Positions 61,634-62,858 of a stretch of DNA of 64,000 nucleotides are shown piece after piece. The stretch lies in assembly GCA_951406725.2 (NCBI GenBank), contig OX597828.1, positions 67,332,001 through 67,396,000 of the forward strand, given 5' to 3'. Positions within the stretch are counted from its first letter, which is position 1. Every line of letters starts with the position of its first letter. Position numbers: made by a program. The DNA is from Octopus vulgaris (taxonomy: Eukaryota).

Positions 61634-61726
<93 letters not shown>

Positions 61727-62798
61727 CAATAATAAATCTCTAGACGAGATATAAACAGTAACTGCTCTATAACATAAGGGGCATCAGCCATCTGAATGTG
61801 GCTAGGGACAGGGCAGGGCGGTGGGGGTGTTACTGATGCATTTAGCACCAGGCGATCATCAACGTCACCAGGAGGGCTGACACCATCTCGGTGTCCTCTA
61901 CCCTGCAAAGGGAGATCATTCCCCGAAGAAGCGGATGCTACATACGGACCAGGTTTCAAGGTATTTGCCTATTATCAACGCATGGTAAGCACCGCTCTCC
62001 GACGAACAACTCTCTGTACAGGCTATATATTTAAGGATTTTCCAGTAAACACATTTACTGATGTAGAAAATCCGTTCGAAAGCAATAATAAATCTCTAAA
62101 CGAGATATAAACAGTAACTGCTCTATAACATAAGGGGCATCAGCCATCTAAATGTGGCTAGGGACAGGGCAGGGCTGTGGGGGTGTTACTGATGCATTTA
62201 GAGAGTTGTTCGTCGGAGAGCGGTGCTTACCATGCGTTGATAATAGGCAAATACCTTGAAACCTGGTCCGTATGTAGCATCCGCTTCTTCGGGGAATGAT
62301 CTCCCTTTGCAGGCTAGAGGACACCGAGATGGTGTCAGCCCTCCTGGTGACGTTGATGATTGCCTGGGGCTAAATGCATCAGTAACACCCCCACCGCCCT
62401 GCCCTGTCCCTAGCCACATCCAGATGGCTGATGCCTCTTATGTTATAGAGCAGTTACTGTTTATAACTCGTCTAGAGATTTATTATTGCTTTCGAACGGA
62501 TTTTCTATATCAGAAAATGTGTTTACTGGAAAATCCTTAAATATATAGCCTGTACAGAGAGTTGTTCGTCGGAGAGCGGTGCTTACCATGCGTTGATAAT
62601 AGGCAAATACCTTGAAACCTGGTCCGAATATAGCATCTGCTTCTTCGGGGAATGATCTCCCTTTGCTGGGTAGAGGACACCGAGATGGTGTCAGCCCTCC
62701 TGATGACGTTGATGATCGCCTGGGCCTAAATGCATCAGTAACACCCCCACCGCCCTGCCCTGTCCCTAGCCACATTCAGATGGCTGATGCCCCTTATG

Positions 62799-62858
<60 letters not shown>

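What the first reader, a model, noticed from the sequence alone, without database searches (positions are those of the whole stretch)
61725..62801. 356-bp unit arranged as tandem-direct then tandem-inverted array inside a (TA)n site
Seen: 1.3 units forward (61725-62200), an abrupt flip, then 1.7 units reversed (62201-62801), with pure (TA)n on both outer sides and only scattered substitutions between copies. The arms start at different phases of the unit, as expected from copying a circular or multimeric template from both ends of a break (inference). Mixed direct and inverted terminal repeats are established for Penelope-like insertions. Any read-through transcript would form several hundred bp of dsRNA, a likely ADAR or Dicer substrate.
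Basis: partly seen in the sequence, partly recalled or inferred. Interest (0 to 1): 0.7.

Follow-up and report, generated by a model that had tools for sequence, protein, structure and literature searches.

The report
Penelope-style tandem-inverted repeat insertion
A 356-base repeat sits inside a TA microsatellite as two head-to-head, more-than-one-copy arms, which is the footprint expected when a Penelope-type retroelement enzyme copies a multi-copy RNA from both sides of a cut, so it is probably a tidy example of a known process rather than a new one.

Summary
A 356-bp unit lies as F(1-356)+F(1-121) at 61725-62201, then reversed as R(291-1)+R(356-44) at 62200-62803, between (TA)n tracts. The copies are 97-98% alike with no indels. 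All 15 variant sites that can be polarised are private to one copy.

The flip is not a symmetric fold-back, because unit position 121 joins position 291 through a 2-nt microhomology. The two outer ends are 43-47 nt out of phase.

This matches published Penelope-like element (PLE) insertions on four counts: a (TA)n target, partial tandems, an inverted 5'-truncated copy, and a 30-40-bp tail at one end. The published mechanism is cleavage and extension of both strands, with two internal reverse-transcription start sites on multi-copy RNA.

My best reading (0.55) is one PLE-type retrotransposition of a short non-autonomous repeat. It is not shown. I found no second copy, no PLE protein, no hammerhead and no match to curated PLE consensi, and no host genome or reads were available.

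Rivals are DNA-level capture of satellite or eccDNA at a fragile (TA)n tract, and misassembly. A read-through RNA would fold into about 420 bp of duplex, but whether the locus is transcribed is unknown.

The parts
61630..61725 (.). Left part of the target (TA)n microsatellite: 48.5 copies, 93% matches, one interruption near 61675. Base 61725 (A) is shared with the unit.
   Evidence: TRF; sequence; junction
61725..61767 (-). The 'tail': 43 nt (unit positions 1-43) present at the left outer end and absent from the right outer end. In the model it is the interval between two reverse-transcription start sites. It contains a 5-bp hairpin (ATCTC/GAGAT).
   Evidence: phase of the ends; fold; the interpretation comes and is an inference
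61725..62080 (-). Copy A, a complete unit (positions 1-356 on the + strand). The inferred sense strand of the element is the - strand here. It has 1 private substitution among positions 1-291.
62081..62201 (-). Copy B, unit positions 1-121. This is the 5'-truncated inner end of the left arm. It has 3 private substitutions.
62200..62201 (.). Flip junction: the 2-nt microhomology 'AG' is shared by the end of the forward arm (unit 120-121) and the start of the reversed arm (unit 291-290). It is a head-to-head join of two 5'-truncated copies and is not symmetric.
62200..62490 (+). Copy C, unit positions 291-1 in reverse complement. The inferred sense strand is the + strand. It has 5 private substitutions.
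62491..62803 (+). Copy D, unit positions 356-44 in reverse complement. Its outer end merges with (TA)n through a shared TATA (62800-62803). It has 6 private substitutions, plus 2 that cannot be polarised.
62800..62855 (.). Right part of the target (TA)n microsatellite, pure (TA)28.
   Evidence: TRF
61768..62803 (.). Potential hairpin of a read-through transcript: arms 61768-62201 and 62370-62803 (434 nt, 97% complementary) with spacer 62202-62369 (168 nt). Predicted 422-423 inter-arm base pairs, and the longest uninterrupted helix is 112 bp.

Best explanation
This is the product of one retrotransposition event of the Penelope-like (PLE) type, acting on a short non-coding 356-nt repeat that does not encode its own enzyme. 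The inferred steps are as follows. (1) The repeat is transcribed as a multimeric, or possibly circular, RNA. The sense strand is the + strand of the right arm. (2) A PLE protein (GIY-YIG nuclease plus reverse transcriptase) supplied in trans cuts both strands of a (TA)n tract. (3) Each 3' end primes reverse transcription of the multi-copy RNA at one of two internal start sites about 43 nt apart. This fixes the two outer ends at unit position 44-48 (right) and position 1 (left) and leaves a one-sided 43-nt 'tail'. (4) Each cDNA runs for more than one unit (604 and 477 nt) and stops short. (5) The two 5'-truncated ends are joined head-to-head through a 2-nt microhomology. Since then the four partial copies have each gained about 0.3-2.5% private substitutions. 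What is shown: the geometry, the junctions, the target, the star-like divergence, and the absence of coding capacity or a ribozyme. What is inferred: the RNA intermediate, the enzyme, and the orientation. A close variant that I cannot exclude is that the arms are heavily 5'-truncated copies of a longer element whose 3' region carries 356-bp tandem repeats.
For: Geometry: the layout is F(1-356) F(1-121) | R(291-1) R(356-44), each arm is longer than one unit, and there are no indels. The flip is asymmetric with 2-nt microhomology, and the outer junctions have 1-nt and 4-nt overlaps. The outer ends are 43-47 nt out of phase; a random circular offset would fall in 30-47 nt with probability 0.10. 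The insertion lies inside (TA)n, while pure (TA)>=10 tracts cover only 2.4% of the window. No variant is shared between copies, which fits one simultaneous origin; the heterogeneity test on private substitutions gives chi-square p=0.20. Literature: Craig et al. 2021 describe partial tandems, an inverted 5'-truncated copy at the 5' end, a 30-40-bp tail often at one end only, (TA)n as a preferred Naiad target, no canonical hammerhead in Naiads, and non-autonomous Chlamys elements that make multicopy head-to-tail insertions (passages). Their File S1 lists (TA)n for 18 of 54 Naiad families (5 of 5 cephalopod ones) and 26 of 27 Hydra-clade families. Frangieh et al. 2024 show that a purified PLE protein cleaves and extends both strands of AT-rich DNA and starts reverse transcription at two adjacent internal sites whose interval corresponds to the tail, and they propose a multi-copy mRNA as the template (main text). 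Unit size (356 bp) and GC content (46.6%) fall within the 150-450 bp and <50% GC described for animal non-LTR retrozymes, which are proposed PLE dependants.
Against: There is no sequence link to any PLE: 0 of 6 12-nt motifs from the unit occur in the Naiad, Chlamys or Hydra consensi of Craig et al. (this is an exact-word test on one strand with moderate sensitivity). No RT or GIY-YIG remnant lies in or next to the array. The only RT in the window, 34 kb away, is R2/LINE-like. No hammerhead or other ribozyme was found at Rfam E<=10 or by a relaxed core pattern, so the unit is not a retrozyme as defined, and Hydra-clade PLEs, the most consistent (TA)n targeters, do carry hammerheads. No second copy of the unit exists in the 64-kb window, so mobility is not shown. 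The offset of 43-47 nt is slightly above the published 30-40 bp. Copy A has fewer private changes than expected (1 against 4.6; P=0.03), which a single homogeneous origin does not predict. The host organism is undetermined, so the presence of a matching PLE is assumed. Craig et al. state that cephalopod Naiads are old remnants.
Confidence: 0.55

Rival explanations
1. A DNA-level repair event. A double-strand break in a cruciform-prone (TA)n tract was repaired by capturing, or copying by microhomology-mediated template switching, a tandem satellite array or a satellite-derived extrachromosomal circle. No RNA and no retroelement enzyme were involved.
For: All three junctions show only 1-4 nt of overlap and arbitrary-looking positions in the unit. 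Each arm is longer than one unit, which a circular or tandem DNA template also explains. No PLE protein, ribozyme or PLE-like sequence was found. Short dispersed satellite arrays with abrupt junctions are documented in molluscs (Satovic et al. 2016, abstract and passages). The fragility of long (TA)n tracts is established knowledge that I recall and did not test here.
Against: This rival does not predict the 43-47-nt offset of the two outer ends (P about 0.10 by chance). It also does not predict a head-to-head arrangement with both outer ends close to one phase. No long array of the unit is seen in the window. It needs at least two template switches or two captured fragments in opposite orientation with no filler.
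Confidence: 0.2
2. An assembly artefact. The inversion, or the whole compact array, is a chimeric or collapsed reconstruction of a repeat and does not exist in the genome as written.
For: Craig et al. note that such tandem/inverted structures often cause assembly problems. Microsatellite flanks are hard to assemble. No reads were available to me.
Against: The flip is not the symmetric palindrome that a missed-adapter or fold-back read would give, because unit position 121 is joined to position 291. The arms differ by 2-3% through substitutions only, with 0 indels in 1081 nt, which looks like real paralogous divergence rather than read error. Both outer junctions are clean.
Confidence: 0.08
3. 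A DNA transposon with long terminal inverted repeats built of subrepeats (foldback-like, or a TA-targeting Tc1/mariner MITE), or a Helitron-borne tandem array.
For: The structure has long inverted arms made of tandem units, and the TA-rich target is compatible with a TA target-site duplication.
Against: The two termini are not inverted copies of each other. The left end is unit position 1 and the right end is position 44-48, so 43-47 nt at the left have no partner. There is no unique internal segment and no transposase. Read from either strand, neither end starts with TC or ends with CTRR (sequence; the Helitron end signature is recalled).
Confidence: 0.04

Closest known systems
Complex tandem/inverted insertions of endonuclease-bearing Penelope-like elements (Naiad and Hydra clades; Craig et al. 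2021, PMC8557442), with the mechanism of Frangieh et al. 2024 (PMC11167929)
   Same: A (TA)n target; a partial tandem; an adjacent inverted 5'-truncated copy; a short extension at one end only; and, for Naiads, no canonical hammerhead. Both DNA strands serve as primers, and there are two internal start sites on a multi-copy RNA.
   Different: There is no RT/GIY-YIG ORF, and the repeating unit is 356 bp rather than 2-4 kb. No sequence similarity to curated consensi was detected. The offset is 43-47 nt rather than 30-40 bp.
Animal non-LTR retrozymes (Cervera & de la Pena 2020, PMC7229834; Li, Clavereau & Pollet 2026 preprint, 10.64898/2026.07.22.740005)
   Same: A non-coding tandem unit of a few hundred bp with GC below 50%, thought to move through multimeric or circular RNA using PLE enzymes.
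   Different: The defining type I hammerhead is absent. An inverted arm is not part of the published retrozyme description in the passages I read. circRNA was not tested.
Non-autonomous Chlamys elements such as MRC1 of Chlamydomonas (Craig et al. 2021, passage)
   Same: Short non-autonomous PLE dependants that form pLTRs and multicopy head-to-tail insertions without a canonical hammerhead.
   Different: Those are from green algae, target other microsatellites ((C)n and (CA)n in File S1), and share their 3' ends with known autonomous partners. No partner is known here.
L1 twin-priming inversions (recalled, no call)
   Same: Two cDNAs are primed from the two strands of one target and joined head-to-head by microhomology.
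   Different: L1 inversions have a poly(A) end, a single-copy template and a different enzyme.

Membership tests
Autonomous Penelope-like element | A single ORF with a PLE reverse transcriptase and a GIY-YIG endonuclease | tested here: not met
   All 7 open frames of at least 75 aa that overlap the array have 0 Pfam families. Of the 128 frames scanned, one reached Pfam's own cut-off (RVT_1 at 26922-27725), and it is closest to R2 and LINE-1.
PLE-type insertion (footprint of the PLE machinery, including non-autonomous dependants) | Partial tandem of the inserted unit (pseudo-LTR-like) | tested here: met
   1.34 and 1.70 units in the two arms with an exact 356-nt period.
PLE-type insertion (footprint of the PLE machinery, including non-autonomous dependants) | An inverted 5'-truncated copy abutting the 5' side (head-to-head) | tested here: inconclusive
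   The inverted arm abuts directly with 2-nt microhomology. That the inner ends are the 5' ends is inferred from the model and not shown by any strand-specific signal.
PLE-type insertion (footprint of the PLE machinery, including non-autonomous dependants) | A 30-40-bp tail at one end only | tested here: inconclusive
   One end extends 43-47 nt beyond the phase of the other. This is close to the published range but just outside it, and there is only a single locus.
PLE-type insertion (footprint of the PLE machinery, including non-autonomous dependants) | An AT-rich or (TA)n target | tested here: met
   (TA)n lies on both sides. Pure tracts cover 2.4% of the window.
PLE-type insertion (footprint of the PLE machinery, including non-autonomous dependants) | Sequence similarity of the unit to the terminus or pLTR of an autonomous PLE | tested here: not met
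   0 of 6 12-nt motifs were found in the Naiad, Chlamys and Hydra consensi. The test is weak: exact words, one strand, and it does not cover Repbase or Dfam.
PLE-type insertion (footprint of the PLE machinery, including non-autonomous dependants) | Many dispersed copies that end at the same sites | not testable with these tools
   No eukaryotic genome collection was available. There is no second copy in the window.
Animal non-LTR retrozyme | A type I hammerhead ribozyme in the tandem units | tested here: not met
   No ribozyme family at Rfam E<=1 (3 kb) or E<=10 (array alone), and none at gathering thresholds in the whole window. 0 of 9 CUGANGA...GAAA matches in the window fall in the array.
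Animal non-LTR retrozyme | Tandem monomers of 150-450 bp with GC below 50% | tested here: met
   356 bp and GC 46.6%. The published ranges come from the passages.
Animal non-LTR retrozyme | Expression as small circular RNAs | not testable with these tools
   No transcriptome data. The circular fold z-score is -3.5 on the inferred sense strand and -1.5 on the other, which is unremarkable.
Foldback or TIR DNA transposon | The two termini are inverted copies of each other | tested here: not met
   The ends lie at unit positions 1 and 44-48.
Fold-back read or assembly artefact | The sequence after the flip is the exact reverse complement of the sequence before it | tested here: not met
   The forward arm ends at unit position 121 and the reversed arm starts at 291. 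The arms differ at 2-3% of sites.
Dispersed short satellite array | The same monomer forms long arrays elsewhere in the genome | not testable with these tools
   No host genome was available.

The most novel reading that the evidence does not exclude
The unit is a ribozyme-free counterpart of animal retrozymes. It would be a 356-nt non-coding RNA that forms multimers or circles without a hammerhead and is mobilised into (TA)n microsatellites by a hammerhead-less PLE of the Naiad type, leaving twin-primed head-to-head arrays that are ready-made long dsRNA sources. That would extend PLE parasitism in animals beyond ribozyme-bearing elements. I found no description of such an animal element in searches, which are not exhaustive.
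Probability: 0.25. Interest if true: 0.55.

Novelty: new member of a known kind. Interest (0 to 1): 0.35.

Why it matters
If the reading is right, this single compact locus displays in one place every hallmark of the unusual PLE integration reaction: priming from both strands, internal initiation at two sites, a multi-copy template, and a microsatellite target. It would do so for a unit that carries neither the enzyme nor a ribozyme. Such units are easily mislabelled as satellites or as misassemblies, so recognising the footprint helps repeat annotation. The structure is also a potential source of about 420 bp of near-perfect dsRNA if it is transcribed. It is one locus with no proof of mobility, so its value is as a worked example and a lead, not a discovery.

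Tried and rejected
**Ribozymes**
- Rfam at E<=1 on 3 kb, at E<=10 on the array alone, and at gathering thresholds on the whole window found none. The weak matches were microsatellite look-alikes of miRNAs and sub-threshold snoRNA models.
- A relaxed hammerhead core pattern gave 0 of 9 window matches inside the array.

**Coding capacity**
- The longest open frame in a trimer is 104 aa.
- The 7 frames overlapping the array have no Pfam family.
- The 104-aa frame has no relative among 5.8 billion proteins.
- The 97-aa frame on the other strand gave 2 hits, and both are unrelated repetitive proteins.

**Other copies and other origins**
- There is no other copy in the window.
- There is no match in plasmids or phages.
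- There is no tRNA-like part.
- A paralogous empty site was sought through the flanks, and none exists. The right flank holds a SINE and a fragment of a palindromic MITE-like repeat, and the left flank is unique.

**Link to curated PLE consensi:** 0 of 6 motifs matched.

**The RT fragment in the window:** it is R2/LINE-like and not a PLE.

**The 184-bp repeat that forms dimers and inverted pairs:** it is an ordinary tRNA-derived SINE with fixed ends, not a second case of the same phenomenon.

**Host lineage**
- It was not determined. The RT's best relatives are unnamed records, and a 23-nt SINE stretch is in no searchable paper.
- My impression that the SINEs and the microsatellite load look cephalopod-like is recalled and unverified.

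**Bacterial promoter/terminator scan:** it has no bearing on a eukaryotic locus and I ignored it.

**Collections not used**
- Genome contigs holds only bacteria and archaea, so I did not use it.
- No genome-wide search for the unit was therefore possible.

Full report
**1. The observation**

The region was read directly and analysed with repeat finders and with blastn of the first unit against the whole window. A 356-bp unit occurs four times, as partial or complete copies and nowhere else in the 64 kb:
- A: 61725-62080, unit positions 1-356.
- B: 62081-62201, positions 1-121, 97.5% identical to A.
- C: 62200-62490 in reverse complement, positions 291-1, 97.9%.
- D: 62491-62803 in reverse complement, positions 356-44, 97.1%.

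The right boundary is two bases further out than stated.

The flanks are (AT)48.5 at 61630-61725 (93% matches, one interruption) and pure (TA)28 at 62800-62855. The inverted arms are 434 nt long, 97% complementary and separated by 168 nt. They are the longest of the 82 inverted pairs in the window. All other blastn matches of the unit are 32 nt or shorter with E>=0.78, so chance is not an issue.

**2. Fine structure**

An in-register comparison of the four copies shows 17 variant sites and no indel in 1081 aligned nucleotides. In the columns covered by three or four copies (positions 1-291), every variant is private to one copy: A 1, B 3, C 5, D 6. Two further A/D differences cannot be polarised. 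Nothing is shared between a forward copy and a reversed copy, so neither arm is a recent copy of the other. The pattern is a star.

The private counts are not significantly heterogeneous overall (chi-square p=0.20), although copy A is low at 1 against 4.6 expected (P=0.03).

The three junctions are:
- **Left outer:** (AT)n, then unit position 1, with one ambiguous base.
- **Flip:** unit position 121 of the forward arm is joined to position 291 of the reversed arm through a shared AG.
- **Right outer:** the reversed arm stops at unit position 44-48, with TATA shared between the unit and the microsatellite.

Three things follow:
- The flip is not a palindrome about a point.
- The reversed arm (604 nt) is longer than the forward arm (477 nt).
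- The two outer ends are 43-47 nt out of phase.

**3. What the unit is not**

*Not coding.*
- The longest open frame in a trimer is 104 aa.
- The seven frames overlapping the array have no Pfam family. In that call I scanned 128 of the 167 high-complexity frames of at least 75 aa, and had left out 39 by hand, mostly frames overlapping others on the same stretch.
- The 104-aa frame has no relative in the 5.8-billion-protein collection.
- The 97-aa frame of the other strand hit only two unrelated repetitive proteins.

*No known structured RNA.*
- There is no Rfam family at gathering thresholds in the whole window.
- There is no ribozyme at E<=1 over 3 kb or at E<=10 on the array alone.
- None of the nine CUGANGA...GAAA matches in the window lies in the array.
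- One copy (D) has CTGATGA where the consensus has CTGGTGA, but no GAAA follows.

*No tRNA-like part and no vector origin.* There is no tRNA-like part and no match in plasmids or phages.

*Fold.* As a circle, the inferred sense strand folds with z=-3.5 and the other strand with z=-1.5. That is not a viroid-like rod.

**4. Context**

The window is AT-rich (GC 36.8%) and packed with microsatellites. There are 73 TRF rows with a score of at least 80 in the first 60 kb, and 38 pure (TA)>=10 tracts cover 2.4% of the window. It also holds SINE copies.

The only protein domain that reached Pfam's own cut-off is a reverse-transcriptase fragment at 26922-27725 (-). Its closest solved relatives are R2 and LINE-1, and it ends in (TAA)n. 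It is a LINE remnant, not a PLE, and it shares nothing with the unit.

No exon-like feature was found, so I cannot say whether the array lies in an intron. The host was not identified.

**5. Comparison with published PLE biology**

*Craig et al. 2021* (PMC8557442; passages; supplementary File S1 and S2 tables read). PLE insertions are highly 5'-truncated and often organised as partial tandems. [quoted passage not shown] By my count of their table, (TA)n is the listed preference for 18 of 54 Naiad families (all 5 cephalopod ones) and for 26 of 27 Hydra-clade families (one cell is blank). They also describe non-autonomous Chlamys elements that form pLTRs and multicopy head-to-tail insertions.

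*Frangieh et al. 2024* (PMC11167929; main text read whole). A purified PLE protein cleaves and extends both strands of AT-rich DNA. Reverse transcription starts at two adjacent sites internal to the RNA, and the interval between them corresponds to the genomic tail. The authors propose an mRNA that contains multiple element copies as the template.

*Cervera & de la Pena 2020* (PMC7229834; passages) and *Li, Clavereau & Pollet 2026* (preprint; abstract and passages). Both describe animal non-LTR retrozymes: tandem units of 150-450 bp with GC below 50% that carry type I hammerheads. The 2026 preprint argues that they are non-autonomous derivatives of PLE pLTRs.

*The manual-curation guide* (PMC8969392; passages) repeats the tandem, inverted-pLTR and 3'-extension features.

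**6. Best explanation**

Every geometric feature of the locus is what that mechanism predicts for a short multi-copy template:

| Feature of the locus | Prediction of the PLE mechanism |
|---|---|
| Cut inside (TA)n | AT-rich or (TA)n target |
| Two cDNAs in opposite orientation | Both strands used as primers |
| Outer ends at two positions about 43 nt apart | Two internal start sites; the extra 43 nt at the left end (61725-61767) is the tail |
| More than one unit per arm | Multimeric or circular RNA template |
| Arbitrary inner ends joined by 2-nt microhomology | Two 5'-truncated cDNAs meeting head-to-head |

On this model the element's sense strand is the + strand of the right arm and the - strand of the left arm.

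I put 0.55 on this. That figure includes the variant in which the arms are strongly 5'-truncated copies of a longer element with 356-bp repeats in its 3' region.

The statistical support from this one locus is modest. The chance of a random offset falling in 30-47 nt is 0.10, and 2.4% of the window lies in pure (TA)n. The weight comes from several independent features coinciding.

**7. What speaks against it**

- None of six 12-nt motifs of the unit occurs in the roughly 450 kb of Naiad, Chlamys and Hydra consensi. This was an exact-word test on one strand, and Repbase and Dfam could not be searched.
- There is no PLE protein remnant in the window.
- There is no hammerhead. The unit is therefore not a retrozyme as defined, and a Hydra-clade partner would be expected to leave one.
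- There is no second copy to show mobility.
- The offset is slightly larger than the published tail.
- The host is unknown, and if it were a cephalopod its Naiads are described as old remnants.
- The supplementary figures of Craig et al. are PDFs that I could not read. They may show details of tails and junctions that bear on this comparison.

**8. Rivals**

- **(a) DNA-level repair of a break in a fragile (TA)n tract, capturing or copying a satellite array or circle (0.20).** It explains the microhomologies and the arms longer than one unit. It does not predict the near-coincident outer phases or the head-to-head order. Dispersed short satellite arrays with abrupt junctions are documented in molluscs (PMC5139131; abstract and passages).
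- **(b) Misassembly (0.08).** The asymmetric flip and the substitution-only divergence between arms argue against it, but no reads were available.
- **(c) A foldback, TIR or Helitron-type DNA element (0.04).** This is rejected because the termini are not inverted copies of each other and lack the recalled Helitron end signature.

**9. The dsRNA claim**

Folding the 1079-nt array as RNA gives 422 (+ strand) or 423 (- strand) inter-arm base pairs, with MFE of -909 and -901 kcal/mol and a longest uninterrupted helix of 112 bp. The structural prediction is therefore sound. Whether the locus is transcribed, edited or diced cannot be addressed with these tools. The genomic copies show no A-to-G bias, with 1 A>G among the 15 substitutions that can be polarised.

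**10. Verdict**

The Penelope analogy fits better than stated, but it is not proven. I class the locus as a probable new member of a known kind: a PLE-type complex insertion of a non-autonomous repeat.

The boldest reading still open is a ribozyme-free analogue of animal retrozymes mobilised by hammerhead-less PLEs (probability about 0.25). Searches showed no description of such an animal element, but they are not exhaustive.

Interest is 0.35. This is a clean textbook-like footprint and a useful annotation lesson, but it rests on one locus, with no genome-wide or transcript evidence.

Noticed in passing
window 26922-27725 (-), with flanks 25936-26138, 26722-26900, 28764-28837: A reverse-transcriptase fragment (Pfam RVT_1, E 8.9e-20; 268-aa open frame) whose 3' side runs into a long (TAA)n tract, with more (TAA)n/(CTA)n nearby. 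Its closest solved relatives are R2 and LINE-1. This is a LINE remnant with a microsatellite tail, possibly of a microsatellite-targeting lineage. Its best database relatives are about 50% identical unnamed records.
   Followed up: partly
window 30910-31274, 39977-40348 (-), 54666-55030; single units at 2419-2597, 55700-55882 (-), 57469-57650: A tRNA-derived SINE whose roughly 184-bp core occurs both singly and as exact tandem dimers, with 15 blastn pieces in the window. Inverted pairs of it make the next-longest inverted repeats after the finding. It has fixed ends and is not set in (TA)n, so it does not show the same phenomenon.
   Followed up: partly
window 63090-63290 and at least 8 other places (e.g. 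35687-35873, 9539-9701, 46413-46606, 576-774, 5588-5774): A second abundant SINE-like repeat of about 190 bp lies 290 bp to the right of the array. Copies are 68-90% identical.
   Followed up: no
window 63589-63788, and 62856-62915: A palindromic MITE-like element (74-nt arms, 91% complementary, 52-nt loop). A 60-nt piece related to one arm (85%) lies directly after the right-hand (TA)n of the finding, so that microsatellite may have grown from the edge of an older repeat.
   Followed up: partly
whole window: Very high microsatellite load: 73 TRF rows with a score of at least 80 in the first 60 kb, including (TA)n, (TAA)n, (CTA)n, (ACT)n and (TGTA)n tracts of 100-430 bp, and 38 pure (TA)>=10 tracts. 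Rfam 'miRNA' matches at 63790-63988 and 63271-63403 are (TG)n/(TA)n look-alikes far below threshold.
   Followed up: no
window 62679-62723 (+), 62323-62369 (+), 61848-61892 (-): The inferred sense strand of three of the four copies gives a weak match to an archaeal C/D-box snoRNA model (sR55; 15-19 bits against a gathering score of 35), driven by a TGATGA box. This is almost certainly chance.
   Followed up: no
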